DNA of 50,475 nt from Escherichia phage vB-Eco-KMB25. Of the stretch, positions 2,109 to 48,265 are shown one piece after another. The notes under the pieces are model-generated. The model was not told the DNA's origin. It searched no databases and worked only from the letters and a program-made list of their open reading frames with translations. The stretch lies in sequence record OR424386.1; one strand, given 5' to 3'. How positions within the stretch are numbered: position 1 is the stretch's first letter; each line of letters begins with the position of its first letter. The translations under genes were made by a program, and so were the position numbers.

Positions 2109-2120
2109 TGTGTAAAATCA

Positions 2121-2147
2121 AAGGCTGGAATATTCCGGCCTTTTTTA
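2121..2147 (+). terminator. hairpin plus T-run between terL and portal (attenuator-type terminator)
   Basis: GGCTGGA-ATAT-TCCGGCC followed by TTTTTT. Confidence 0.5.
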
Positions 2148-2161
2148 TTATGGGGGTATTT

Positions 2162-5792: not shown

Positions 5793-5817
5793 AAGGCCGG
5801 ATTATTCCGGCCTTTTA
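5793..5817 (+). terminator. hairpin plus T-run (near-copy of the 2121 element)
   Basis: GGCCGGA-TTAT-TCCGGCC followed by TTTT. Confidence 0.5.
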
Positions 5818-5831
5818 TATATGGTGGTTTT

Positions 5832-6272: not shown

Positions 6273-6361
6273 TGTGCTAACACAAAAAACACTTGAACGT
6301 TTAACAAAAAATGCTATATTAAAGCCGTTATTATGACGGCTTTTCTATGAGGGAAAATATT

Positions 6362-7336: not shown

Positions 7337-7352
7337 TAATTCAATTAATATA

Positions 7353-7381
7353 GGGAACCGTTAAAAGGTTCCCTTTTTTTA
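7353..7381 (+). terminator. rho-independent terminator after the capsid gene
   Basis: GGGAACC-GTTAAAA-GGTTCCC followed by TTTTTTT. Confidence 0.6.
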
Positions 7382-7398
7382 TATCTGGAGAAAAACAA

Positions 7399-9997: not shown

Positions 9998-10003
9998 TTT
10001 AAA

Positions 10004-10027
10004 GGGGCGCATTGCGTCCCTTTTTTA
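10004..10027 (+). terminator. rho-independent terminator after the major tail gene
   Basis: GGGGCGC-ATT-GCGTCCC followed by TTTTTT. Confidence 0.6.
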
Positions 10028-10068
10028 TTTGATGTAATATCACCTCAATATTTAACAACTCAGGAGAA

Positions 10069-14003: not shown

Positions 14004-14007
14004 ATCA

Positions 14008-14033
14008 AAGCCGCCATTGTGCGGCTTTTTTAT
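14008..14033 (+). terminator. rho-independent terminator
   Basis: AAGCCGC-CATTGT-GCGGCTT followed by TTTTT. Confidence 0.55.
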
Positions 14034-14070
14034 TGTGTCTATAATGGTGCTTTATTGGAGGGCATAGAAT

Positions 14071-16173: not shown

Positions 16174-16221
16174 TACATGTACAATGGCAGCACGTTTAAA
16201 TAGCACAAAAGGTTAAAAGCT

Positions 16222-21062: not shown

Positions 21063-22118
21063 ATGAGCGATTTTAAAGTTTACACCTTTGACCAGTTAAC
21101 CAATGATGAATATCACGATCCTAAAGGTTGGGCGGCTGAATACGTTAGCGGTTCAAGCCTGGCGGAAATCTTTGCAACTTGTCCGGCTGCATGGAAATAC
21201 AGACCACGCGAGGAAAGCAAAGCGCTTGTTTTCGGTACGCAGTCACACACCAACTTTCAAAGCAGTGAGTTGTTCGCAAAAGAGTACCGCCGAGCGCCAG
21301 CGCCGGAAGATTACGAAAACTTGATCACAAGCCAAACGGCATTAGCCAGCAAGTTAAAATCTTTTGGCCTGACTGGTACAAGCGGTAAAACTTATCCAGA
21401 CCTGATAAAAATGATGGTTGATTGTGGGGAGGATCTTAATGTTCAGTGGCTGATTGAAATGATCGCAGAGAGCCAGGCGCGAGCGGATAACGTTGAATTG
21501 GTTCCGGCTAAAGATTACGACGCTTGCGTTACCATGCGCCGCGTACTTGAAAACATACCGGAACACAACGCTTGCATGAATAGCCCAACAGCACAACGCG
21601 AGCTATCAATTTTCGGATCTATTAAAGGCGTTAAAGTCAAAGTAAGGCTTGACCATGTTGATATTTGCAAGGATGTGCTTGCAACGGTGATTTCCGGCTA
21701 TGACGGTGAAGGGAATCCGGTTTATGAAACAACGCGATTTGATGAAGCTATTGTGATCACTGATTACAAAACAACGTCAAGCGCTAACCCAACGGAGTTT
21801 TCACGGCTGGCATTCAATCACGGATACTACTTGAAAATGGCATTGCAGCATGACCTATTCAAGAAAGCGTATCCAGAAGAAACGCGCCCCGTAGTAGTCA
21901 GATTGCTGGCGCAGGAAAAGAAAGAGCCTTATTTACCGATTGCATACCGCATGACGGATGAACAATTGAAGATCGGACGGCTTCAATACATGAGTGTGAT
22001 AAACCAGTTTGCAGAATGCCAGGCAAATGACAGTTGGCCTTCATACGCAAACGGAGAGCCTGAAATTGATCTTCAAACGCCTGATTGGGTACGCAGACAA
22101 TACAAAGGTTTTTTATAA
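21063..22118 (+). CDS. PD-(D/E)xK family exonuclease (recombination exonuclease candidate)
   Basis: ATG 21063 behind GAGAGGA; motifs RLDHVD ... ITDYKTT resemble the D..(D/E)xK nuclease core; lies upstream of the Erf-like and SSB genes. Confidence 0.5.
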   Translation: MSDFKVYTFDQLTNDEYHDPKGWAAEYVSGSSLAEIFATCPAAWKYRPREESKALVFGTQSHTNFQSSELFAKEYRRAPAPEDYENLITSQTALASKLKSFGLTGTSGKTYPDLIKMMVDCGEDLNVQWLIEMIAESQARADNVELVPAKDYDACVTMRRVLENIPEHNACMNSPTAQRELSIFGSIKGVKVKVRLDHVDICKDVLATVISGYDGEGNPVYETTRFDEAIVITDYKTTSSANPTEFSRLAFNHGYYLKMALQHDLFKKAYPEETRPVVVRLLAQEKKEPYLPIAYRMTDEQLKIGRLQYMSVINQFAECQANDSWPSYANGEPEIDLQTPDWVRRQYKGFL

Positions 22119-22119
22119 A

Positions 22120-22161
22120 TAGCACTTTTTGCTAAAACAGCCATTCGATGCGTGGTATACT
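22120..22161 (+). promoter_or_regulatory. dyad-box promoter (TAGCACTTTTTGCTAAAAC, 17 bp, TATACT)
   Basis: Member of the repeated box-spacer-hexamer architecture. Confidence 0.5.
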
Positions 22162-22193
22162 ACACGCATCAACCAACAAGAGAGGAAATAAAA

Positions 22194-26916: not shown

Positions 26917-26948
26917 TTCTCAACCTCCAAATAAAAAAACCTGGCACG

Positions 26949-26991
26949 ATGATAAACCATGCCAGGCCGGAATTTTTAGCAATCAGTGCTA
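26949..26991 (-). promoter_or_regulatory. dyad-box promoter (TAGCACTGATTGCTAAAAA, 18 bp, TATCAT)
   Basis: Box overlaps the last codons of the upstream gene (..DSTDC stop). Confidence 0.45.
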
Positions 26992-27584
26992 TCGACGGAA
27001 ATCACAACGCGTTTCTTCTGATTGGCTTCCTTTGCTTTGCGCCGTTCTTCTTTCGCCTTGTCGCGTTCAGCTTTGCGCCGCGCTTTCTCCTTCTCGCGTT
27101 CTTCTGGAGTCATAGACCGTAACGGATCGTAAGGCCGAACAAATCCGCGCGCCTCCGCTTCTTCTTTTGTGACAAATCGCATGAGCTTTCTGTTGCTGCA
27201 ACGATTCTCTAATGGCTTGCCGTTGTTGTCAAAGCGCAAATCTGGACGGCAATATGAAGCGCGGAAACCGTTAAAACCTTTGCGGCGGTAATCCTTTTGG
27301 ATCAGTTCAGCGCCTTTAGCTGAAATCATTCCGCGCTCTTTCCATCCCCACACTGTTTTAAGGTTAACGCCAATCTCACGCGCCAACGCAGCACAGCCGC
27401 CATAAGCGCTAACCACTTCATCAAGCCTAGCTTTTAATCCTGCCCTTACTTCTTCCTTTAGTACCAGATAACCGCTAACAGGTGCGCGGCGCTTCCGGTC
27501 TTTACCACGCCTTACGCCGTTGTTACCATTGATTGTGCGTTTGTCGATTTCGCCCGTTGAGGCCGCAATTTTGATTCCGCCCAT
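26976..27584 (-). CDS. putative DNA-binding protein with Lys/Arg/Glu-rich C-terminus
   Basis: ATG 27584 behind AGGTGA; HTH-like segment AALAREIGVNLKTVWGW; protein ends DSTDC, encoded by the dyad box. Confidence 0.3.
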   Translation of the reverse strand: MGGIKIAASTGEIDKRTINGNNGVRRGKDRKRRAPVSGYLVLKEEVRAGLKARLDEVVSAYGGCAALAREIGVNLKTVWGWKERGMISAKGAELIQKDYRRKGFNGFRASYCRPDLRFDNNGKPLENRCSNRKLMRFVTKEEAEARGFVRPYDPLRSMTPEEREKEKARRKAERDKAKEERRKAKEANQKKRVVISVDSTDC

Positions 27585-27595
27585 ATTTTCACCTA

Positions 27596-27637
27596 TAGCA
27601 CTTTTTGCTAAAACTATTGAGTAAGTTTGTGTATGAT
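27596..27637 (+). promoter_or_regulatory. dyad-box promoter (TAGCACTTTTTGCTAAAAC, 17 bp, TATGAT)
   Basis: Upstream of the helicase gene. Confidence 0.5.
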
Positions 27638-27672
27638 ATGGTGCAAATGGCATTTAGTCAAAAGGATAAGTA

Positions 27673-30056: not shown

Positions 30057-30096
30057 CACTTTTTGTTAAAACAGGCGCGACGGAATGCGCCATAAT
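30054..30096 (+). promoter_or_regulatory. dyad-box promoter (TAGCACTTTTTGTTAAAAC, 18 bp, CATAAT)
   Basis: Box TAG is the stop codon of the upstream gene. Confidence 0.5.
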
Positions 30097-31377: not shown

Positions 31378-31420
31378 TAGCACTTTTTGTTAAAACCCGC
31401 TACGGCGGGTTTTGTATTAT
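31378..31420 (+). promoter_or_regulatory. dyad-box promoter (TAGCACTTTTTGTTAAAAC, 18 bp, TATTAT)
   Basis: Spacer contains terminator-like hairpin CCCGC-TACG-GCGGG followed by TTTTG. Confidence 0.5.
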
Positions 31421-34526: not shown

Positions 34527-34569
34527 AATATACCCGATACAAGATCGGGTGTTTTAACAAAAAGTGCTA
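34527..34569 (-). promoter_or_regulatory. dyad-box promoter (TAGCACTTTTTGTTAAAAC, 18 bp, TATATT)
   Basis: Box TAG is the stop codon of the upstream gene. Confidence 0.5.
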
Positions 34570-36663: not shown

Positions 36664-36690
36664 CTAAAAATCTCCTTCTTGTTGCCGCTA

Positions 36691-36733
36691 ATTATAACGG
36701 CAACATTCTACAGCCTTTTAGCAATTCGTGCTA
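36691..36733 (-). promoter_or_regulatory. dyad-box promoter (TAGCACGAATTGCTAAAAG, 18 bp, TATAAT)
   Basis: Perfect -10 hexamer lies in the loop of hairpin GTTGCCG/CGGCAAC. Confidence 0.5.
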
Positions 36734-37370: not shown

Positions 37371-37413
37371 ATTATGCCGGATACGTGATCCGGCGTTTTA
37401 ACAAAAAGTGCTA
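37371..37413 (-). promoter_or_regulatory. dyad-box promoter (TAGCACTTTTTGTTAAAAC, 18 bp, CATAAT)
   Basis: Spacer is hairpin GCCGGAT-CACGT-ATCCGGC. Confidence 0.5.
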
Positions 37414-39564: not shown

Positions 39565-40340
39565 TTTAATTAAAATACGAATACCTTTTCGCACGCTTTC
39601 CGTCGCCTCCGTAATGGTCATTAGCAACAGCAAGAATCCAAGCGTTAGGAATAAAAAATAGCTTCATTAATCACTCTCCATGACAATTACAGGCTCCAGG
39701 CGCTCAAGCACCACTTTGAAATCGGAGTAAAAAGTAGGGCGACGTTTTGTTAATTCCTCATATGTATCAGTTGCCAGGCAAGCGCGATCACCTTCATAGC
39801 ACACAACTCGCTTACCATTGGCGCGGCTTATTGCAACGACGCGATAAGTATTATTGATCATTTCATCACCTCAATTGAATAAATACTTTCAACGCCTGGC
39901 GCGTATAACCGATCTCCATCTTCAGTTATGCAAAGACAAAGTGCAAGGCCGCGATTGTCTGAAATATGCAAGTCATTTTGTCTATCCATCAAAATTTCAT
40001 ATTCGCGATCTTCATCAAAGCGCCAAACGCTTAACATGCACTTTCCAGATGATTTAACTTTTACTTTCTTTCCGGCGAAATTTAAACGACTCATTGCGCC
40101 ACCTCCACAGTTTCAAATACGGTATTGAATGCCAGAAGTTTAAATTTCTTGCCAGGCTCAACAACCTGAATATTCCAGGTAATGCCGCCGTGATATGCAA
40201 CCATATCATCAATATCGACGGTGATTTGTGCGCCCTTCTTGAATAAACCTTTTTCATGGCTCGCATCGCGTACAGTAACCACAGTTTCGAATTGAGTTTG
40301 AATTTCCATCGTTAATCTCCTGATTGGTTTCGATGGGGTA

Positions 40341-40383
40341 ACTATATCAAGATACCCCGATCCGGTTTTAACAAAAAATGCTA
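40341..40383 (-). promoter_or_regulatory. dyad-box promoter (TAGCATTTTTTGTTAAAAC, 18 bp, TATAGT)
   Basis: -10 lies in the loop of hairpin GGGGTA/TACCCC. Confidence 0.5.
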
Positions 40384-40819: not shown

Positions 40820-40850
40820 CGTGAATTCCTCAGTTCGTTTCGATGAAGCA

Positions 40851-40893
40851 ATCATAGCAATTCGCGTCTGATTGGTTTTAACAAAAAGTGCTA
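40851..40893 (-). promoter_or_regulatory. dyad-box promoter (TAGCACTTTTTGTTAAAAC, 18 bp, TATGAT)
   Basis: Outermost promoter of the minus-strand cluster, at the edge of the AT-rich region. Confidence 0.5.
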
Positions 40894-40902
40894 TTCATGC
40901 GA

Positions 40903-40932
40903 TAGACCGATTGGTCTAGACCGTTTGGTCTA
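40903..40932. repeat. two tandem inverted repeats TAGACC-N4-GGTCTA (operator-like)
   Basis: TAGACCGATTGGTCTA and TAGACCGTTTGGTCTA overlap by 2 bp. Confidence 0.5.
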
Positions 40933-41221
40933 ATGAACGCATCGTTTTGTGTATCGAACGCATTCATGATCCTGTTACGTGATCGTTATATGATCAGATG
41001 ATGATTGATGTGTGAGATTTTGTGATTGAAATTGATTTGATTTGATTAGATTTGAGTAGTGAGAGAGTAGAAATAATCACACCTTGCCGATCAGTGAAAA
41101 CTTTTCCCGCAAAACATCACTCCATGCTCCGCGCGTTTCGTTTTGTTCCTCGTTGTTTTCCGCCAGACCTTCCGCAGTTTAGCGCAACGTTACACAACAC
41201 GTATAACAACAAAATATCTAT

Positions 41222-41294
41222 ATAATACATTGAAAAGTAAGATAATTATTATTATATATCTATATTGTTATATAACTTGTTTTGCTTGTTTCTC
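41222..41294. repeat. AT-rich repeat element, copy 2
   Basis: Shares the 19-nt core AAATATCTATATAATACAT and the TAATTATTATTATATAT block with 20724-20808. Confidence 0.5.
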
Positions 41295-41482
41295 ATGATA
41301 TTGATACCCCTTTACTGATTGATAGAGTATAAAATTATAAGATAGGTGCTCTTATTTATTATAGGTGGCGGTGATTTTTAGCGAAATGGTGTAACGATTT
41401 AGAACATCGTTGATTTGAAAGGATAAATTTTCAATTACTGTTACATTGCGTGATGTTTTTGTTGTCTAATCAAAAATAACAC

Positions 41483-41510
41483 TTGACGCATAAGCCAGGC
41501 TTGCTAAGAT
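41483..41510 (+). promoter_or_regulatory. sigma70-type early promoter TTGACG-16-TAAGAT
   Basis: Upstream A-rich tract; about 35 nt before the GGAGG RBS of the first early gene. Confidence 0.55.
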
Positions 41511-42287: not shown

Positions 42288-42510
42288 AAGCATTCGCCTT
42301 TGTCGCTGCAATGTGGTGTGTTGTTATTGATAGTCCTGGCGTGGCGCTGGTTGTGTTAGGTCTGATTTTGTTGGGGGTGTTTGATGAATAAGAAACTTTT
42401 AGATCATGCCGTGGTGTTCTTTATCGCTGCTGCTGGATTTTCGCTGTTGTCAATTGCTTTTTCAATCCTTGCTTTTGCCGTGTCAATGCTGAAATGACGG
42501 ATTACATCCT

Positions 42511-42553
42511 GATTGGCAAATAGCACTTTTTGTTAAAACTCGATTGGGGTAGT
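42511..42553 (+). promoter_or_regulatory. dyad-box promoter (TAGCACTTTTTGTTAAAAC, 18 bp, CATAAT)
   Basis: -10 in the loop of hairpin TGGGGTA/TACCCCA; followed by TCGAAACGAAACGAGG leader. Confidence 0.5.
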
Positions 42554-43355
42554 TTGGCATAATTACCCCATCGAAACGAAACGAGGAAAACACAATGACT
42601 ACCTTAATCACCTGGGAACACGAAACAAGCCAGCCAGTAACCCGCGAGTTTGAAACTCTTAGCCAGGCTTATCTTTTGGCTGCTAACGGTGGTTATTACA
42701 AGGCTCAAGTTGTTGATGAAATGGGAGTGATCGTTTATGAATTCCATGCATAATTTCCGCAGCTACACGCAGGAAGTGGATTTTGAGGGGATCAAGTTAC
42801 CACTTCCTAACATATACCGCTATATCACTCGTGATGAATACGGATTTATAAACGCCTGGCGAGATAAGCCCAAAAAGGTTGGCAATGAATACGGCGACGG
42901 CTCAGAGATGCCGATCACGTTAGGTCATCAAACTGGCGAGAATGTAGCGGCTGTAATGCGCAAATATCGCCGCAGCCTCACAAACTCATTAATTTCTATC
43001 TTTGGCATACAGGAGTAATAAAAATGTTTGAACTGAAACGCGTAACTGTTGAGATCCTGAATGATGGCTCTTACGATGGAATGAAACACTTAACATTCCC
43101 GATCCGCATTGAGAATTGCATTGATTACGGTATTGAAGTTGGAATGGTTGACGTTCCGCTTGATGCCCTGGTAGCGGCTGGCTATGACAAAGAGAAAGGC
43201 CAATGCGCCGATATACCGGATAGCTATGAAAGCGACACACATTTCCCGTTCACCTATGGCGAATGCAGGATTGTTGATTGAGGTTATAAAGTGAGCAGTT
43301 GGCATAATGAACACGTAATGCAATTCTACCGCTACAGAATAAAGAAAATGCTAAA

Positions 43356-43398
43356 TAGCACGAATTGCTAAAACTAAATCAGGGGCATTTGTTATAGT
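43356..43398 (+). promoter_or_regulatory. dyad-box promoter (TAGCACGAATTGCTAAAAC, 18 bp, TGtTATAGT)
   Basis: Extended -10-like TGnTATAGT in the loop of hairpin AGGGGCA/TGCCCCT. Confidence 0.5.
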
Positions 43399-43432
43399 GC
43401 CCCTCGTTGAGTTAAGCAAAGGAGAATCAACA

Positions 43433-43987
43433 ATGTTAAGCATCGAAAAAATCAACTTCCCGATCACATTTAAAAATTGCGCTAACGGTAAAAATATTAC
43501 ATATCACAGTGAATACAGCAACGGCGTTTGGAGTAGCGGCGAGAAAAGCAGTCTTTCATTGCAATATTTCATTAAGCTGCATAATGAGCATAACCAAAGC
43601 AATAGTAATGTGTTGAGGTACTATTACGAAATGGCAGAAAAACGCGAGGATAACGATCTGTTATATGCGATGAAATATTTAAATATCAGGCCTGGCCATG
43701 TCAATTTAAACGGTGCTGTGTTTACTGAGTCAGTAGGTGCTAAAGATTACGATTACATTTGCAAGGTTGAAAATATGCCAGTTGGCGCAACGCTTTTAGG
43801 TGTTCAGCGTGAAAATGGCGAATGGGACGAGTTGAAATTTAAACCGCGCCGCATTGAAGTACATGACGATGTTATTTGCTTGCTTTCCGGTTATTCTGGT
43901 GGCTACAAGAGCGGCAATAATTACGGCGCTGAAATCAACATTAAGATCGGCACTAACGTAAAAATCAAAAACAGCACGAATTGCTAA
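43433..43987 (+). CDS. hypothetical early protein ending in NSTNC
   Basis: 184 aa from ATG 43433 behind AGGAG; last five codons are supplied by the next dyad box. Confidence 0.3.
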   Translation: MLSIEKINFPITFKNCANGKNITYHSEYSNGVWSSGEKSSLSLQYFIKLHNEHNQSNSNVLRYYYEMAEKREDNDLLYAMKYLNIRPGHVNLNGAVFTESVGAKDYDYICKVENMPVGATLLGVQRENGEWDELKFKPRRIEVHDDVICLLSGYSGGYKSGNNYGAEINIKIGTNVKIKNSTNC

Positions 43988-44014
43988 AACAGAATTTTGA
44001 GCTTGCTGTATAGT
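43972..44014 (+). promoter_or_regulatory. dyad-box promoter (CAGCACGAATTGCTAAAAC, 18 bp, TATAGT)
   Basis: Box embedded in the 3' end of the upstream CDS. Confidence 0.45.
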
Positions 44015-44361
44015 AAGCTCATACCAAACAACGAAAGGATCAAAAAATGGAATTAGCACGTAACGCGGTTTATGGCTTACACCTTAATAAAGGCGGCAAA
44101 GGCTCAAGTTATGCACACCTTTTTCATGTTAACGAGCGCGGTCAAATTGATATTGCAATGTATGTTGACAAACTGGTTAAAGGTTGTGAGTCCAGCAAGT
44201 TCAGACCCGATCTGATTGAATACGATCACACACACAGTCACGACCACTGGTTAGGTGGTTATAAATTTACAATGCTTGATAGCCATGTTATTGACACAAG
44301 AAAATTAACGAATCGTGACTATAGGCGCATGGCTCGAAAAATCCTGAAGCAGAAAGCGCAA

Positions 44362-44404
44362 TAGCACGAAATGTTAAGCGGTCATGTGTGCTGATTGGTA
44401 CAAT
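44362..44404 (+). promoter_or_regulatory. dyad-box promoter, degenerate box (TAGCACGAAATGTTAAGCG, 18 bp, TACAAT)
   Basis: Downstream leader GCATCAACCAACAAGAGAGGA is nearly identical to that at 22164-22184. Confidence 0.4.
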
Positions 44405-44547
44405 GACCGCATCAACCAACAAGAGAGGATAGAAAAATGTCAAAAGAATCAATTAAGCAGTTTCTGAAATACGGCTCTATGATTGTGCTCGCTACCGTTG
44501 TGCTGGCTGGCATCGCTTACAGTGTCATCGAATTTGTGGGGTAATGG

Positions 44548-45111
44548 ATGTTTAAGATCGAATTGTGGGGGAAGGAATACGCTAATCACTACGTTGCAAC
44601 AAAACAGCGTTTCGTTATTTTTGACCTGGACGGCACGTTATCAAATGGGGCGCATCGCTTGCACCTGTTGCCAACTGTTGACTTGCATCTTACTGAAAGC
44701 TGGAGTGAGTTTAACCGCGCCTCAAAGGATGATTCACCGTTCAGCAATAACATTTCCGTGTGCAATGCTATGTTTGATGCCGGATACCTGGTTATCATCC
44801 TAACGGGTCGGAGTGATGAAGTTGAGGCAGAAACGCGAGCATGGTTAGCTGAAAACGGCGTTTCTTTCGATTGGCTGATTATGCGCCGAGCGGAGGACAA
44901 CCGGAAAGATACCGTGATCAAAGAGGAAGTTTTACGGACTATCGGGCTTGATCGCATTGTCGCATGTTGGGATGACTCGCCAAACGTTATTGCACACTTG
45001 CGCGGCCTGGGCTTGACGGTTTACCAGGTTATTGACTACGGAGACCAGTTGCACGATCACATAAAATCTCACGGCGTGGAGGAATTGAGCGATGACAGCA
45101 AAGCTAATTGA
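44548..45111 (+). CDS. HAD-superfamily phosphatase (polynucleotide 3'-phosphatase-like)
   Basis: Motif I FDLDGTL, later LTGRSD and WDDSP motifs typical of HAD phosphatases. Confidence 0.55.
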   Translation: MFKIELWGKEYANHYVATKQRFVIFDLDGTLSNGAHRLHLLPTVDLHLTESWSEFNRASKDDSPFSNNISVCNAMFDAGYLVIILTGRSDEVEAETRAWLAENGVSFDWLIMRRAEDNRKDTVIKEEVLRTIGLDRIVACWDDSPNVIAHLRGLGLTVYQVIDYGDQLHDHIKSHGVEELSDDSKAN

Positions 45112-45477
45112 AGATCGGCATGGTGATAACGTGCTTATTTACATCGAAGGGAAATCGGTGTTGATTGACTGCAAATATGAGGATGACACACATTTGCAGT
45201 TTCGCGGAATCTTTGACAAGAAAGGCGCATTGGAGTTAGCGGAACACATCAAGCGTCTTGCGGAAGAATTACCGGAATAGAGGATTTATTATGTTGACTT
45301 TTATCTTGATCGCTATCGTTTTAATTCTGTATGTTTGCGGCGCTTTCCTGATGCGAGCGCTACTAAAAGAGGCTGACGCTGATGATAAGGATAGTTGGAA
45401 GCCGATTATTTTATGGCCTGGCTATATCATCGTGCCAATTTACGAACTAATCCGCGATGGTGAGTTTAAATGGTAAA

Positions 45478-45520
45478 TAGCACTTTTTGCTAAAACTTGC
45501 TAAGGCACATTTGATAAAGT
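45478..45520 (+). promoter_or_regulatory. dyad-box promoter (TAGCACTTTTTGCTAAAAC, 18 bp, TGaTAAAGT)
   Basis: -10 in the loop of hairpin AGGCACA/TGTGCCT. Confidence 0.5.
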
Positions 45521-46024
45521 GTGCCTTGTCGAGACAAGCAAGGAGAATGACACATGAAAGTTTTTATGATTAAACAGTTTGGACGCACTGCATATTATAT
45601 CATCAACGACGAGGGAGATATTTTCATTTCGAACTATCCTACTCTTGAAGTAGGTCGTCATTTCAGAAGTTCAGTTGACGAAAAGGGAGTTATCAATATG
45701 GTTGAGTGTGGAATGATGGTTCCCTTCAATAAAGAAGCGGCTGAATTATTCCAGCAATCACAGATCCGAAAACGCAACCGCAATATTATTTGCTTCACAA
45801 TTGCAATGGTTGTAACTGTTGGCTCAATCTTACTTGGAGTGTGGTCGTGATGAATACTGATAATAAAGTTGAAACACAAAAGACGATCAACTATCTGCGA
45901 GCGCTTGCTGATGCTCTTGAGTCCGGCGAGGCAGCATTAAATGATGTTAGTATTGAGTCAAGAAATCACGGATGGACTCAGATCGAAGAAACATTAACCG
46001 TTCAATATTTTAAGGTGAATAAAG

Positions 46025-46600
46025 ATGGCTAAAATTATAATCCTCAATGCGCCTCCTGGTGCTGGTAAAGACACGATAGGCAAGATGATTTCTGTCTATT
46101 CGCCTGGTAAGCAATGCCGAATCATTAGCTTTAAAGAGCCAATGTTTGATATTGCATTAGCTATCCTGGGCAAAGAGAACTATAAGCGTTTCATGCTGGC
46201 TTACGATGACAGAGAGCAGAAAGAAAGGCCGCAAACATTCCTGATGGGTATGTCACCGCGCGAGTTCATGATCTGGATTAGCGAGGATGTGATCAAGCCT
46301 AAATTCGGTAAGGATTATTTCGGCGTAAGGTTTAATCAGAAAGTAAAAGAGTGTGATGCTCCTGTTGTTTGCACTGATGGCGGTTTTCCAGATGAAATTA
46401 TAGCGCTAATCAATGCTGGTAATGAGGTGAAGTTATGCCGCTTGCACCGCGACGGGTTCACGTTTGCAGGTGATAGCCGCAACTACATTCGAATAAATCC
46501 ATACTACCAGAAAAACGGATATAGCGAGCACGATTATAAATTGGTTGATAAACAACCAAATGTAACGGTAAAGGAAATCATTCGCGATCACCTTAAATAG
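46025..46600 (+). CDS. P-loop kinase (polynucleotide or nucleotide kinase-like)
   Basis: N-terminal Walker A LNAPPGAGKDT; 191 aa; 0.9 kb downstream of the HAD phosphatase. Confidence 0.5.
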   Translation: MAKIIILNAPPGAGKDTIGKMISVYSPGKQCRIISFKEPMFDIALAILGKENYKRFMLAYDDREQKERPQTFLMGMSPREFMIWISEDVIKPKFGKDYFGVRFNQKVKECDAPVVCTDGGFPDEIIALINAGNEVKLCRLHRDGFTFAGDSRNYIRINPYYQKNGYSEHDYKLVDKQPNVTVKEIIRDHLK

Positions 46601-46640
46601 CACGAATTGCTAAAACTTGCGCAAGGCCATTTGTTATAGT
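46598..46640 (+). promoter_or_regulatory. dyad-box promoter (TAGCACGAATTGCTAAAAC, 18 bp, TGtTATAGT)
   Basis: Box TAG is the kinase stop codon; -10 in the loop of hairpin AAGGCCA/TGGCCTT. Confidence 0.5.
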
Positions 46641-47474
46641 GGCCTTATTCAAGAGAAGCAACCAATCAGAGGAATAAACGATGAAAATCAAATGCACCAA
46701 ATCAAACACAATGAATCTGACAGTTGGCGCGATTTACCATATGGAAGAAGGTGTAAACGGGTTTAGCCCAACTGTTACGCATGAGTACGGCGGTCACTTC
46801 TTCTTAAACGGTAAAGACGGATTATCTGTAAATGTTGGCTCTTTCGTTCTGGCAGAATTTGAGATCGTGGAGGAATAAAAATGTTCTGGATTCATTCGCC
46901 GCAAGGTTTGCTTTATGTGCCTGGCGTTGAATTTGAAGAACGACGCGACGGCGACACGGTAAACATCATAACTAAGGATTCAAAAGGCCACACTCTTAAA
47001 ACGTATGTTTTAAACACTCCGGTTAAGGTCGAAAAAGATGATTAAATTTATTGGTTTTGTGGCATTGCTTGTGTGCGGCATATGGCTTACTGACAATGAC
47101 ACTTGGCAAAGTGCTGTTGGAGGATTACTTATTTTTCTTGCTGGTGGCATGGTTGGCAGTGATGACGCAACAAATAAGAACAAACTTTCGGATCATTTAC
47201 GCAGAGAGACAAAACGATGAATAGAAAAATGCTGGTACGCGCCTTTGCTAAGATTGCTAAAAGGTGGGGAGACTCTAACAAATCGCCTTACACGTTTAGC
47301 CGCTACGGTTATAAAAATGCTCGCGACTGGGGTCGCTGCATTGCGGATAACTACAACTCCGAAATTCTGGAAGATTTCGCAAAGTGGATTGATACGCCTT
47401 TGAAGGATTGGTGTCAATTTGACTATGACTATTTCGCAGAAGAAGAAATTTCTTGTTTGTAAGGAGAATAAAAT

Positions 47475-47987
47475 ATGAAAGCTAAAAATGATTTTTATAA
47501 CTACCTGACAAAAGGCCGCGACTATACCGTTTTGAATAGCATAGATACTCTTTACCTGGTTGTTGCTGATAATGGCGTTAGAGTTTGGCTTGATAAAACT
47601 CTTTTCGAAAGCGAGCACCTAAGCAATGCAAAGCGGATCGCAGATGAAGCAAGTGCATTAGCAGAGCGTGAAAGAATTCGCGATATCGTTGCGGAGCAGG
47701 TGAGAAATTCATGTTCGCCTGGTGGCGATATCTTCAAATCAATGCGCGGTGAAATGACTGTTGGAATTCAAGATCGCGTAATTGCAAAATCAGTTGATTC
47801 TGTAATTGAGAATGCGAAATTCAATGCGTTGATTAACTCAGAGCCTAACGAATACGTCAAAGTGTTAGAGCAACTGCGTGAAGTGCTGAGAGTGCCGGAA
47901 GGTGAGAATATAGTGACTCATGCAAAGGTTGTAAGGACGTTGGCTGATGCTTTGCTTGACGTTTACCCAGGAATGAAGTGCAAATAG
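47475..47987 (+). CDS. hypothetical early protein
   Basis: 170-aa ORF whose TAG stop begins the next dyad box. Confidence 0.3.
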   Translation: MKAKNDFYNYLTKGRDYTVLNSIDTLYLVVADNGVRVWLDKTLFESEHLSNAKRIADEASALAERERIRDIVAEQVRNSCSPGGDIFKSMRGEMTVGIQDRVIAKSVDSVIENAKFNALINSEPNEYVKVLEQLREVLRVPEGENIVTHAKVVRTLADALLDVYPGMKCK

Positions 47988-48027
47988 CACTTTTTGTTAA
48001 AACTTCCGCGAGGGCATTTGTTAAAGT
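47985..48027 (+). promoter_or_regulatory. dyad-box promoter (TAGCACTTTTTGTTAAAAC, 18 bp, TGtTAAAGT)
   Basis: Same architecture; first gene downstream encodes the acidic 67-aa protein. Confidence 0.5.
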
Positions 48028-48061
48028 GTCCTCATTGAAGCGAAACACGGAGATTTAGAAA

Positions 48062-48265
48062 ATGGCTGTATACACTGGCAAGATGTTTGAAAGCGAAAAC
48101 CCGATTTACGGCGGCACTTATGAGCTAATCATTGATGAAGATCGCGTTATCCTGGCTGATGACGACAGCGAGGAATATTATGAAGTAGAGGCCGACAAAT
48201 GGGATAACGACGTTATGTTTCTTGTTGATAACAACCGCATCAAGTTTTACGCAGTGGAGGAATAA
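48062..48265 (+). CDS. highly acidic small protein (hypothetical)
   Basis: 67 aa with about 20 Asp/Glu and few basic residues (ADDDSEEYYEVEADKWDND). Confidence 0.3.
   Translation: MAVYTGKMFESENPIYGGTYELIIDEDRVILADDDSEEYYEVEADKWDNDVMFLVDNNRIKFYAVEE

What the first reader, a model, noticed from the sequence alone, without database searches (positions are those of the whole stretch)
42530..48030. Sequence-variable but structurally conserved hairpins enclose the -10 element or spacer of the dyad-box promoters
In most dyad-box promoters the 18-bp spacer plus hexamer forms a 6-8 bp inverted repeat of different sequence each time, for example AGGGGCA-tttgttatag-TGCCCCT at 43382-43405, AGGCACA/TGTGCCT at 45503, AAGGCCA/TGGCCTT at 46622, GGGGTA/TACCCC on the minus strand at 40340, and GTTGCCG/CGGCAAC around the TATAAT at 36680-36705. 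The -10 sits in the loop, or the hairpin fills the spacer. Stem sequences co-vary while the structure is kept, implying selection at the structural level, for example a leaky terminator for upstream read-through fused to the next promoter, or a DNA hairpin or cruciform.
Basis: partly seen in the sequence, partly recalled or inferred. Interest (0 to 1): 0.5.

Follow-up and report, generated by a model that had tools for sequence, protein, structure and literature searches.

The report
Hairpins built into phage promoters
In this T1/TLS-like phage, most of the repeated "box" promoters carry a hairpin of variable sequence around or just before their -10 element; the sequence statistics point to an RNA stem-loop formed on transcripts arriving from the upstream gene, a design already described for T4-like phages.

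Summary
The window is a Tlsvirus phage, 97.9% identical to Citrobacter phage Stevie. It has about 20 copies of the box AATAGCAC-N5-GYTAAAAC. Each box sits at a fixed distance from a TG-extended TATAAT-like -10 and a CA start site.

Fifteen of 20 box promoters, including all seven in 42530-48030, have a stable hairpin (-9 to -20 kcal/mol) between box and start site. In 96 non-redundant sites from relatives the fold is far stronger than in column-shuffled controls (z = -30). A subfamily chosen by loop motif alone shows clear covariation: 87% of cells paired against 69% in shuffles, and 19 different stems.

There are two sharp classes. In one the arms flank the -10. In the other the hairpin fills the spacer and abuts the -10.

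Four lines of evidence favour an RNA hairpin on read-through transcripts over a DNA cruciform:
- G.U pairs far outnumber A.C pairs.
- Stable RNA tetraloops (GNRA, UNCG) are enriched.
- The sense strand folds better than the antisense strand.
- Promoters with no co-directional upstream gene lack the hairpin.

Most hairpins lack a U-tract, so termination is inferred, not shown. The closest known systems are PeSL promoter/stem-loop cassettes of T4-like phages and promoter-coupled terminators. This is a new member of a known kind.

The parts
42519..42539 (+). Dyad box (AATAGCACTTTTTGTTAAAAC), the upstream element of the promoter
   Evidence: Register to the -10 and start site is fixed. The Stevie record annotates the equivalent as repeat_region.
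42545..42570 (+). Class A hairpin. The core GGGGTA/TACCCC encloses TGGCATAAT, with the -10 at 42558-42563. The likely start site is A at 42570.
   Evidence: -14.2 kcal/mol, z = -3.4.
43354..43374 (+). Dyad box. The stop codon of the upstream Stp-like ORF lies inside it.
43381..43404 (+). Class A hairpin AGGGGCA/TGCCCCT around TGTTATAGT, with the -10 at 43393-43398.
   Evidence: -15.1 kcal/mol, z = -4.8. Covariation.
43970..43990 (+). Dyad box. The stop codon of ORF 43397-43987 lies inside it.
43998..44021 (+). Class A hairpin TGAGCTT/AAGCTCA around the TATAGT at 44009-44014.
   Evidence: -13.6 kcal/mol, z = -3.8.
44360..44380 (+). Dyad box variant (AATAGCACGAAATGTTAAGCG). The TAG of the upstream ORF lies inside it.
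44378..44410 (+). Long hairpin GCGGTCAT/ATGACCGC. The 3' arm overlaps the -10 TACAAT at 44399-44404.
   Evidence: -20.3 kcal/mol, z = -4.7.
45476..45496 (+). Dyad box.
45501..45528 (+). Class A hairpin AAGGCACA/TGTGCCTT around TGATAAAGT, with the -10 at 45515-45520.
   Evidence: -16.2 kcal/mol, z = -5.7. Covariation.
46596..46616 (+). Dyad box. Its TAG is the stop codon of ORF 46025-46600.
46623..46646 (+). Class A hairpin AAGGCCA/TGGCCTT around TGTTATAGT, with the -10 at 46635-46640. The likely start site is A at 46647.
   Evidence: -12.9 kcal/mol, z = -2.8. Covariation.
47983..48003 (+). Dyad box. Its TAG is the stop codon of ORF 47475-47987.
48010..48033 (+). Class A hairpin GAGGGCA/TGTCCTC, with one G.U pair, around TGTTAAAGT. 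The -10 is at 48022-48027.
   Evidence: -14.2 kcal/mol as RNA; the antisense DNA strand folds at only -2.2 kcal/mol.
22147..22170 (+). Class A hairpin GATGCGTG/CACGCATC around TGGTATACT, after box 22118-22138 and downstream of the RecE-like gene.
   Evidence: -14.2 kcal/mol, z = -4.3.
26938..26968 (-). Class A hairpin CCTGGCA/TGCCAGG around TATCAT, followed by TTTTTTTATTT. This is a full intrinsic terminator sitting inside a box promoter. It follows the HTH regulator gene.
   Evidence: (-16.6 kcal/mol). It is TLS terminator T57 next to repeat DR10 and is annotated as a terminator in Stevie.
30074..30091 (+). Class B hairpin GGCGC/GCGCC filling the spacer and abutting the -10 CATAAT.
   Evidence: -10.0 kcal/mol, z = -2.1.
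31391..31414 (+). Class B hairpin AAAACCCGC/GCGGGTTTT, then TTTTG-TATTAT. This is a canonical promoter-coupled terminator.
   Evidence: It is TLS terminator T62 right after repeat DR12 and is annotated as a terminator in Stevie.
34532..34550 (-). Class B hairpin ACCCGAT/ATCGGGT, then ATATTTGTTTT.
   Evidence: -9.3 kcal/mol. Annotated as a terminator in Stevie.
36681..36704 (-). Class A hairpin GTTGCCG/CGGCAAC around TATAAT.
   Evidence: -11.8 kcal/mol, z = -2.6.
37376..37394 (-). Class B hairpin GCCGGAT/ATCCGGC abutting CATAAT.
   Evidence: -11.7 kcal/mol, z = -3.4.
40332..40362 (-). Class A hairpin GGGGTA/TACCCC, with a bulged extension, around TGATATAGT.
   Evidence: -12.0 kcal/mol, z = -1.6.
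40842..40895 (-). Box promoter without a hairpin. It is the first promoter of the leftward early unit, and about 700 bp of non-coding DNA lies upstream.
   Evidence: -6.3 kcal/mol, z = -1.5. Stevie annotation.
27594..27647 (+). Box promoter without a hairpin. It is the first promoter of the helicase unit and diverges from the HTH regulator gene.
   Evidence: -3.0 kcal/mol, z = +0.17..

Best explanation
**What the cassette is.** Each cassette is a compact composite of a promoter and an RNA stem-loop. It is the counterpart in T1-like phages of a PeSL (promoter-early stem-loop cassette of T4-like phages).

**The promoter.**
- A 21-bp dyad box lies at about -51 to -31.
- It has no -35 element.
- A TATAAT-like -10, mostly TG-extended, lies at -12 to -7.
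- A CA start site lies 7 nt further on.

**Where the hairpin fits.** The upstream gene's stop codon usually lies inside the box. The conserved leader begins at +1. So only two stretches of free sequence remain: the 18 bp between box and -10, and the 6 bp between -10 and +1.
- Class B hairpins are built in the first stretch. The stem ends at -12 and abuts the -10.
- Class A hairpins use both stretches. The arms flank the -10 and the stem ends at -1.

**What it does.** The promoter's own transcript starts after the 3' arm. The stem-loop therefore exists only on RNA that reads in from the upstream cassette. On that RNA I infer that it attenuates or terminates read-through, which insulates the next promoter and sets the dosage of each cassette. 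It would also leave a hairpin that protects the 3' end of the upstream mRNA.

**Shown:**
- The hairpins exist, and there are two register classes.
- The structure is conserved and the stems covary.
- The sequence signatures are those of sense-strand RNA.
- A subset are canonical terminators with a U-tract.

**Inferred:**
- The promoter and start-site assignment, which rests on conservation only.
- The attenuator activity of the majority that lack a U-tract.
For: **1. Promoter register (446 unique sites).**
- G of the TG motif is present in 361 of 446 sites.
- The -10 hexamer consensus is TATAAT. Its A at position 2 and T at position 6 are each present in 380 of 446.
- The start-site A, 7 nt after the hexamer, is present in 357 of 446.

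**2. Structure.**
- Folds are much stronger than dinucleotide shuffles (-12.7 against -6.7 kcal/mol) and column shuffles (z = -30.6).
- Fifteen of 20 window sites fold.
- Covariation is clear in a subfamily chosen independently of the stems, with 19 distinct stems.

**3. RNA level and sense strand.**
- Internal G.T outnumbers A.C 86:13 in 158 distinct stems.
- The ratio is 25:7 after removing conserved columns and collapsing to 79 stem families, p = 0.002.
- It is 13:0 in the subfamily.
- Class B tetraloops are 22 of 41 GNRA and 5 of 41 UNCG, against a few percent expected.
- The sense strand folds better than the antisense strand in 63 sites against 31, p = 1.5e-6.

**4. Link to upstream transcription.**
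- In the window, hairpins occur at 15 of 17 promoters with a co-oriented upstream gene and at 0 of 3 that are first in their unit. Fisher p = 0.009 by hand, or 0.035 if the doubtful site 20638- is dropped.
- An annotation-free proxy based on GC skew gives -6.7 kcal/mol (n = 15) against -10.8 (n = 83), p = 0.009.

**5. Sharp 3' boundaries.** The 3' arm ends at -12 in 47 hairpins and at -1 in 53, of 205 distinct hairpins.

**6. A subset are true terminators.** Three in the window pass the terminator scan. Curators annotated the same hairpins as rho-independent terminators in T1, TLS and Stevie.

**7. Precedent.**
- PeSL stem-loops lie between -35 and -10 or overlap the -10. One PeSL stem-loop reduced lacZ expression as much as the rrnB T1 terminator (PMC2839356).
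- Promoter-coupled terminators, in which the coupled promoter raises termination efficiency, are described in bioRxiv 10.64898/2026.08.19.745784.
Against: - Twelve of 15 window hairpins have no U-tract. Across relatives, only 8 of 113 class A and 18 of 85 class B tails have 5 or more T in 8 nt. By the canonical rule most should terminate poorly.
- No transcript 5' or 3' end data for any T1-like phage could be found.
- Among close orthologues, single changes that break a pair outnumber those that keep it, 31 to 15. Double changes split 2 kept to 2 broken.
- Two window promoters with co-oriented upstream genes lack a hairpin (38825-, 39563-).
- One first-in-unit promoter in T1 (36446+) has an AT-rich 9-bp inverted repeat around its -10.
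- C-to-T bias on the coding strand (GC skew +0.15) could account for part of the G.T excess.
- Termination cannot be separated from pure 3'-end protection or RNA processing with sequence data alone.
Confidence: 0.6

Rival explanations
1. The RNA hairpin acts only after transcription. Read-through polycistronic RNA is cut in the AU-rich box or in the leader. The hairpin then serves as a 3' block to exonucleases for the upstream mRNA, or as a 5' shield for the downstream one. It does not stop RNA polymerase.
For: - The RNA-level evidence is the same as for the main explanation.
- Most hairpins lack a U-tract.
- The flanking box RNA and the A/C-rich leader are unstructured.
Against: - A subset are complete terminators.
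- The hairpin is kept strictly upstream of +1. That matters if polymerase must be dealt with before or at the promoter, and matters less for RNA stability.
- One PeSL stem-loop reduced downstream expression strongly.
Confidence: 0.22
2. The hairpin forms in DNA. Supercoiling extrudes a cruciform or single-strand hairpin at the promoter. This presents or hides the -10 and so tunes initiation, as with the hairpin promoters of phage N4 or promoters controlled by a cruciform.
For: - The inverted repeats are centred on the start of the -10 in class A. The pairing register in which the two column numbers sum to 71 stands out.
- The loop is AT-rich.
Against: - G.T pairs far outnumber A.C pairs (86:13, 25:7 and 13:0). 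A cruciform needs both strands to pair.
- RNA-specific GNRA and UNCG tetraloops are enriched on the sense strand.
- As DNA the stems are worth only -2.2 to -7 kcal/mol. At 47986 the antisense strand does not fold.
- Stems are 6-9 bp and loops 4-12 nt.
- The hairpins are missing from promoters that are first in their unit. A feature intrinsic to the promoter should not depend on upstream context.
- These phages encode no RNA polymerase (TLS paper).
Confidence: 0.06
3. The hairpins are a by-product of composition. G-rich spacers and C-rich discriminators are selected for promoter kinetics and happen to be complementary.
For: - Columns 44-47 are C-rich in most sites, and columns 24-28 are G-rich.
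- Many class A stems are GGGG/CCCC.
Against: - Shuffling within columns keeps exactly this composition and abolishes the folds (-4.9 against -10.7 kcal/mol, z = -30.6).
- Stems without G or C runs, such as AACGTCA/TGGCGTT and GAGTGCA/TGCACTC, pair equally well.
- Slid registers pair at only 31-50%.
Confidence: 0.03
4. The cassettes, and perhaps their stem-loops, are mainly recombination sites for shuffling of gene modules, as proposed for PeSL mini-circles.
For: - About 20 near-identical 21-bp boxes plus conserved leaders flank small accessory ORFs.
- Relatives differ by insertions and deletions in this region. Matches cover 63-100% of the query, in up to 7 pieces.
- Orthologous downstream genes sometimes carry unrelated hairpins (clusters 14 and 17).
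Against: - Ends of BLAST alignment blocks between the window and 120 related loci are not enriched in cassettes: 15 of 112 against 11.6% expected. The test is crude.
- Recombination would not explain the RNA-specific signatures.
Confidence: 0.09

Closest known systems
PeSLs (promoter-early stem-loops) of T4-type phages RB49, phi1, PST and nt-1 (Arbiol et al. 2010, PMC2839356; Comeau et al. 2014, PMC4122927)
   Same: - It is a repeated intergenic cassette: upstream stop codon in an AT-rich stretch, then promoter, then stem-loop, then Shine-Dalgarno sequence and start codon.
- The stem-loop most often lies between the two promoter elements or overlaps the -10.
- Stems are G-run/C-run with G.T pairs.
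- Cassettes are concentrated among small early accessory genes.
- The proposed role is attenuation of read-through from the upstream cassette.
   Different: - It is not homologous. The host phage is a siphovirus of the Drexlerviridae.
- The promoter has no -35. It has a 21-bp dyad box centred near -42 and, in most copies, a TG-extended -10.
- The hairpins fall into two sharply fixed registers, ending at -12 or -1.
- No terminator assay exists here.
- A crude test found no excess of recombination breakpoints.
Promoter-coupled terminators (Fletcher, Grainger et al., bioRxiv 10.64898/2026.08.19.745784)
   Same: - The terminator stem-loop overlaps the upstream part of the next promoter.
- The T-tract lies just before the -10.
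- They occur between tandem genes.
- Window hairpins 31391-31414 and 34532-34550 fit the published layout, as do the late-region terminators with TTTTTATTAT tails.
   Different: - Most hairpins here have no T-tract.
- Class A encloses the -10. Any termination point would fall at about +7 of the next promoter, not about 10 bp upstream of its start site.
- The stem does not supply a -35.
Canonical intrinsic (Rho-independent) terminators
   Same: - The hairpin is GC-rich, with 6-9 bp and -9 to -20 kcal/mol.
- GNRA and UNCG tetraloops are enriched.
- It lies 8-25 nt after a stop codon.
- G.U pairs are tolerated.
   Different: - A U-tract is present in only 3 of 15 window hairpins and in a minority across relatives.
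- Class A loops are 4-12 nt and contain a conserved -10.
Phage N4 virion-RNA-polymerase hairpin promoters and cruciform-controlled promoters
   Same: A short inverted repeat lies at a promoter.
   Different: - Those hairpins act in DNA and need both strands or a defined template-strand hairpin with a 3-nt loop. N4 also needs a phage-encoded polymerase.
- Here the signatures are those of RNA on the sense strand, and the phage encodes no polymerase.
Mycobacteriophage L5 stoperators (the published suggestion for the 21-22-bp repeat)
   Same: It is an asymmetric short repeat, intergenic, and oriented with transcription.
   Different: - That suggestion concerns the box, not the hairpin.
- The box here sits at a fixed distance upstream of a -10 and start site. 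That is the position of a promoter element or activator site, not of a roadblock.
- The phage is lytic.

Membership tests
PeSL-type composite promoter/stem-loop cassette | A repeated sigma-70-type early promoter motif with both -35 and -10. | tested here: not met
   The -10, the TG motif and the start site are conserved in register. No -35 is present: columns 12-17 read TAAAAC. The consensus scan calls none of these promoters. A 21-bp box takes the place of the -35 and UP region.
PeSL-type composite promoter/stem-loop cassette | A stable stem-loop placed inside the promoter, between the two elements or overlapping the -10. | tested here: met
   Class B fills the spacer. Class A flanks or overlaps the -10.
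PeSL-type composite promoter/stem-loop cassette | The upstream gene's stop codon lies in the AT-rich 5' part, and a Shine-Dalgarno sequence and start codon lie at the 3' end. | tested here: met
   In six of the seven cassettes in 42.5-48 kb the stop codon lies inside or at the edge of the box. In the seventh (42522) the upstream ORF ends about 20 nt before the box. The start codon lies about 76 nt after the start of the box.
PeSL-type composite promoter/stem-loop cassette | The stem-loop reduces downstream expression (terminator or attenuator activity). | not testable with these tools
   Only indirect evidence is available: RNA-level signatures and the dependence on upstream context.
PeSL-type composite promoter/stem-loop cassette | Cassettes mediate shuffling of gene modules, with recombination junctions inside the cassettes. 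| tested here: inconclusive
   15 of 112 alignment-block ends fall in cassettes, against 11.6% expected. The test is crude.
Intrinsic terminator | A GC-rich hairpin on the transcript. | tested here: met
   (mean -12 to -13.5 kcal/mol).
Intrinsic terminator | A U-tract immediately 3' of the stem. | tested here: not met
   It is met by only 3 of 15 window hairpins. Across relatives, 8 of 113 class A and 18 of 85 class B tails have 5 or more T in 8 nt.
Promoter-coupled terminator (Fletcher et al. 2026) | The order stem-loop, T-tract, -10, with the termination site about 10 bp upstream of the next start site. | tested here: inconclusive
   The layout is met at 31391-31414, at 34532-34550 and at the late-region terminators. 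It is not met by class A. No data on RNA 3' ends exist.
DNA cruciform or N4-type hairpin promoter | Pairing is required on both DNA strands, or on the template strand, so there should be no bias between strands. | tested here: not met
   G.T against A.C is 86:13, 25:7 and 13:0. The sense strand folds better than the antisense strand. DNA folds are weak.
Rfam RNA families | A match to any curated covariance model. | tested here: not met
   No match at gathering score anywhere in the window.

The most novel reading that the evidence does not exclude
The class A hairpins may be terminators or pause sites that lack a U-tract and work only because of their promoter context. In one version, the -10 hexamer held in the loop is read on the non-template strand by sigma-70 still bound to the incoming elongation complex. 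This causes a sigma-dependent pause a few nucleotides past the 3' arm, which stands in for the U-tract. In the other version, polymerase or the box-binding factor at the coupled promoter supplies the delay. Either way, the same 24 bp would encode both the stop for one transcript and the start of the next. The hairpin register, ending exactly at -1, would then be a mechanistic requirement and not merely a matter of available space.
Probability: 0.1. Interest if true: 0.7.

Novelty: new member of a known kind. Interest (0 to 1): 0.4.

Why it matters
**An open question about T1-like phages.** The function of their 21-22-bp intergenic repeat is listed as open in the 2024 TLS paper. That paper found only three sigma-70 promoters in TLS. 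The analysis here gives a concrete and testable reading. The repeat is the upstream half of about 20 compact promoters that lack a -35 and mostly have a TG-extended -10. Most of these promoters carry a built-in RNA stem-loop that acts on read-through from the preceding gene.

**Reach of the design.** The PeSL design was described only in T4-like myoviruses. Here it appears in an unrelated siphovirus family. That points to a convergent way of insulating tightly packed early genes.

**Practical use.**
- It would improve promoter and terminator annotation in Drexlerviridae, several of which are candidates for phage therapy.
- It offers a natural library of about 80 stem families in two fixed registers. 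This could be used to study how hairpins without a U-tract affect RNA polymerase at a promoter.
- The cassettes could serve as insulator-promoter parts of about 50 bp.

Tried and rejected
- **One pairing register on all 92 non-redundant sites.** The signal was weak: 45% paired against 41-43%, with 4 and 19 of 500 shuffles as high. The hairpins occupy several registers. I replaced this test with column-shuffled folding and with a subfamily defined by loop motif.
- **Compensatory changes among close orthologues.** Orthologues were sites with at least 70% identity, grouped by their downstream gene. There were too few events: 15 single changes kept the pair, 31 broke it, and double changes split 2 to 2. 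This is not evidence for covariation at that depth.
- **ORF-based call of a co-oriented upstream gene.** Genes of 26-35 aa make it unreliable. I replaced it with Stevie's annotation and a GC-skew proxy.
- **Recombination breakpoints at cassettes.** No enrichment.
- **Rfam.** No match.
- **Consensus -35/-10 and terminator scans.** They miss the box promoters and all but three of the box hairpins.
- **Literature searches for start-site or 3'-end data on T1-like phages.** Nothing found.
- **TTGCTA inside the box as the -35.** Rejected, because the spacing to the -10 is 22 bp.
- **T4 MotA-box analogy.** Rejected, because the position differs and no MotA or AsiA is known here. This rests on memory and was not tested.
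- **RNase III site.** Rejected, because the stems are far shorter than about 20 bp. This rests on general knowledge.

Full report
**Identity and context.** The window is a Tlsvirus phage (Drexlerviridae). Region 42400-48100 is 97.9% identical to Citrobacter phage Stevie and 91% identical to TLS. The motif AGCAC-N5-GYTAA occurs 27 times at up to 1 mismatch, against 6.3 expected. About 20 of these are full copies of AATAGCAC-N5-GYTAAAAC, intergenic and co-oriented with the genes. Stevie's record annotates them only as repeat_region.

The literature treats the repeat as unexplained. The Stevie paper reports 16 copies of a 22-bp repeat with unknown role and mentions stoperators. The 2024 TLS paper reports a 21-nt repeat about 76 nt upstream of start codons, finds only three sigma-70 promoters in the genome, and lists the repeat's function among its open questions. 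Neither paper mentions a -10 or a hairpin downstream of the repeat.

**Promoter anatomy.** I collected 446 unique box sites from the window and 120 IMG/VR loci. I numbered columns from the A of AGCAC as column 0. Everything downstream is in fixed register.
- G of the TG motif (column 34) is present in 361 of 446 sites.
- The hexamer at columns 36-41 has the consensus TATAAT. Its A at position 2 and T at position 6 are each present in 380 of 446.
- C then A occupy columns 47-48 (307 and 357 of 446). This is the expected start site, 7 nt after the hexamer.
- An A/C-rich leader follows (CATCGAAACGAAAC), then a Shine-Dalgarno sequence and the ATG.

There is no -35. Columns 12-17 read TAAAAC, and TTGCTA lies 22 bp from the -10. 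The consensus -35/-10 scan finds none of these promoters. The centre of the box dyad is near -42. The promoter and start-site assignments rest on conservation and are not shown by experiment.

**The observation.** Two coordinates are off by one base.

I folded the 36 nt after each of 20 window boxes as RNA. Fifteen fold at -9.3 to -20.3 kcal/mol, with z from -1.6 to -5.7, and all seven in 42530-48030 are among them. Five do not fold.

Across 363 in-register sites the mean minimum free energy is -12.7 kcal/mol, against -6.7 for dinucleotide shuffles. The stricter control uses 96 non-redundant sites and shuffles letters within alignment columns, which keeps the G-rich and C-rich positions. It gives -10.7 against -4.9 +/- 0.19 (z = -30.6), and 74% against 12.6% of sites at -8 kcal/mol or better. 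Composition therefore does not explain the folds.

**Two classes.** Among 205 distinct hairpins the 3' arm ends at one of two sharply preferred positions.
- Class B (85 hairpins; 47 end exactly at column 36, which is -12). The hairpin fills the spacer, usually with a 4-5 nt loop, and abuts the -10.
- Class A (113 hairpins; 53 end exactly at column 47, which is -1). The arms flank the -10.

These are the only two stretches of free sequence between the box and the conserved leader. The upstream gene's stop codon usually lies inside the box; for example, the TAG of AATAGCAC ends the ORFs at 44364, 46600 and 47987. The register can therefore be explained by lack of space.

**Covariation.**
- A single fixed register tested on all non-redundant sites gives only a weak signal, because the registers differ between sites.
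- Close orthologues show too few changes to be informative.
- A subfamily of 42 distinct sites, chosen only by the loop motif TTWGNTANART, gives a clear result for the helix pairing columns 24-30 with 41-47. This subfamily includes 43357, 45479, 46599 and 47986.
  - 86.9% of cells are paired, against 69.1 +/- 1.2 in shuffles (0 of 500 as high).
  - 55 cells changed on both sides, against 15.2 expected.
  - The covariation score is 0.487 against 0.170.
  - Slid registers pair at 31-50%.
  - There are 19 distinct stems.
- Phage T1, from another subfamily, has the same box and both hairpin classes.

**RNA or DNA?** Four independent signatures point to RNA on the sense strand.
- Internal G.T outnumbers A.C 86:13 in 158 distinct stems. 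The ratio is 25:7 after removing conserved columns and collapsing to 79 stem families, p = 0.002. It is 13:0 in the subfamily. A cruciform would turn every G.T on one strand into an A.C on the other.
- Class B tetraloops are 22 of 41 GNRA and 5 of 41 UNCG.
- The sense strand folds better than the antisense strand in 63 sites against 31, p = 1.5e-6.
- As DNA the stems are worth only -2.2 to -7 kcal/mol.

One caveat applies to the first point. C-to-T bias on the coding strand (GC skew +0.15) could contribute to the G.T excess, but probably not at this magnitude.

**Which RNA carries the hairpin?** The promoter's own transcript begins after the 3' arm. Only RNA reading in from upstream contains the hairpin. 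Consistent with this, the three window box promoters with no co-directional upstream gene have no hairpin: 40892-, 27597+ and 20638-. Their status was checked against Stevie's annotation. Fifteen of the 17 other promoters have one. Fisher p is 0.009 by hand, or 0.035 without 20638-, whose -10 is poor. An annotation-free proxy based on GC skew, applied to non-redundant sites from many phages, gives the same direction: -6.7 kcal/mol (n = 15) against -10.8 (n = 83), p = 0.009. There are exceptions. Sites 38825- and 39563- lack a hairpin, and T1 36446+ has an AT-rich inverted repeat that may be an operator.

**What it most likely does.**
- Three window hairpins are complete intrinsic terminators (26938-26968 minus strand, 31391-31414 plus strand, 34532-34550 minus strand). 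They are annotated as terminators in Stevie. The first two are TLS terminators T57 and T62. T1 carries class B box hairpins that its curators likewise annotated as terminators.
- The remaining twelve lack a U-tract. Mean T content of the 8-nt tail is 1.2 for class A and 3.4 for class B. Their effect on polymerase is therefore inferred.
- I commit to attenuation or termination of read-through, together with 3'-end protection of the upstream mRNA, at confidence 0.6. The pure RNA stability or processing variant is the main rival, at 0.22.
- Rejected or given low weight: DNA cruciform, compositional by-product, and recombination site. Breakpoints are not enriched in cassettes, 15 of 112 against 11.6% expected.

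**Comparison with known systems.** The architecture matches the PeSLs of T4-type phages. [quoted passage not shown] One PeSL stem-loop reduced lacZ expression as much as rrnB T1. Class B hairpins with a T-tract, and the late-region terminators with TTTTTATTAT or TTTTATATAT tails, match the promoter-coupled terminators of a 2026 preprint, in which the coupled promoter raises termination efficiency.

The differences here are these:
- The elements are not homologous to PeSLs and occur in a siphovirus family.
- A 21-bp box replaces the -35.
- The hairpins fall into two sharply fixed registers.
- There are no functional data.

**Verdict.**
- The finding is a new member of a known kind.
- Interest is moderate. 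The hairpin design itself is known. Its systematic presence, together with the fixed register of box, -10 and start site, gives a testable answer to a question that the T1-like phage literature still lists as open.

Noticed in passing
window, all box sites (for example 42519-42570, 46596-46647): The 21-bp repeat, whose function the 2024 TLS paper calls unknown, sits at a fixed distance from a TATAAT-like -10 (mostly TG-extended) and a CA start site. Its dyad TAGCA-N5-TGYTA is centred near -42, and no -35 is present. This looks like a binding site for an activator or a polymerase-contacting factor, not a stoperator.
   Followed up: partly
window 26976-27653 (-) and 27633-27661 (-): An HTH protein is encoded here. 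It has a weak YdaS-like Pfam hit, and Stevie gp29 is annotated as a lambda-repressor-like transcriptional regulator. It is expressed from one of the few canonical promoters (TTGACT-17-TATCAT), divergent from the helicase box promoter. It is a candidate binder of the box.
   Followed up: partly
window 2120-2153, 5793-5824, 7352-7384, 10001-10033, 14007-14038: Late-region intrinsic terminators are followed directly by -10-like tails such as TTTTTTATTAT, TTTTATATAT and TTTTTTTATAT. This is the layout described for promoter-coupled terminators, and it may explain the 'transcriptons' proposed for T1.
   Followed up: no
window 6301-6315 (-) and 16202-16216 (+): Degenerate box copies lie in the late structural region. 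One is antisense to the capsid genes, and neither has an in-register -10. Copies at similar late-region positions, one of them antisense, occur in TLS (DR7, DR8); T1 has two antisense late-region copies (15084-, 18848-). Their role is unknown.
   Followed up: no
window, +1 to about +15 of many box promoters (for example 42570-42584, 40334-40320 on the minus strand): The leader is conserved, A/C-rich and G-poor (CATCGAAACGAAAC), and is shared by otherwise unrelated cassettes. It could be a translation enhancer, an RNase E site or a rut-like site.
   Followed up: no
window 40893-41480: About 600 bp of non-coding DNA lies between the leftward and rightward early units. It ends in a canonical promoter (TTGACG-16-TAAGAT with TG, at 41483-41510). 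Stevie also annotates no gene here. It could hold an origin or other control region.
   Followed up: no
L122 (phage T1) 36446-36500: The T1 helicase box promoter is first in its unit but has a 9-bp AT-rich inverted repeat, AACGTTTAC-N20-GTAAACGTT, around its -10. The window's equivalent site (27597+) has none. It may be an operator for the divergent regulator.
   Followed up: no
window 30074-30091, 31391-31414 and other class B sites: Read on the opposite strand, class B hairpins are followed by the GTTTTA of the box. The scan tool calls 30091-30074 on the minus strand terminator-like. They could therefore also stop antisense transcription.
   Followed up: no
window 43290-43372: A 26-aa ORF equivalent to the one Stevie and TLS annotate as Stp (activator of the host PrrC anticodon nuclease) ends inside the box at 43354-43374.
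   Followed up: no
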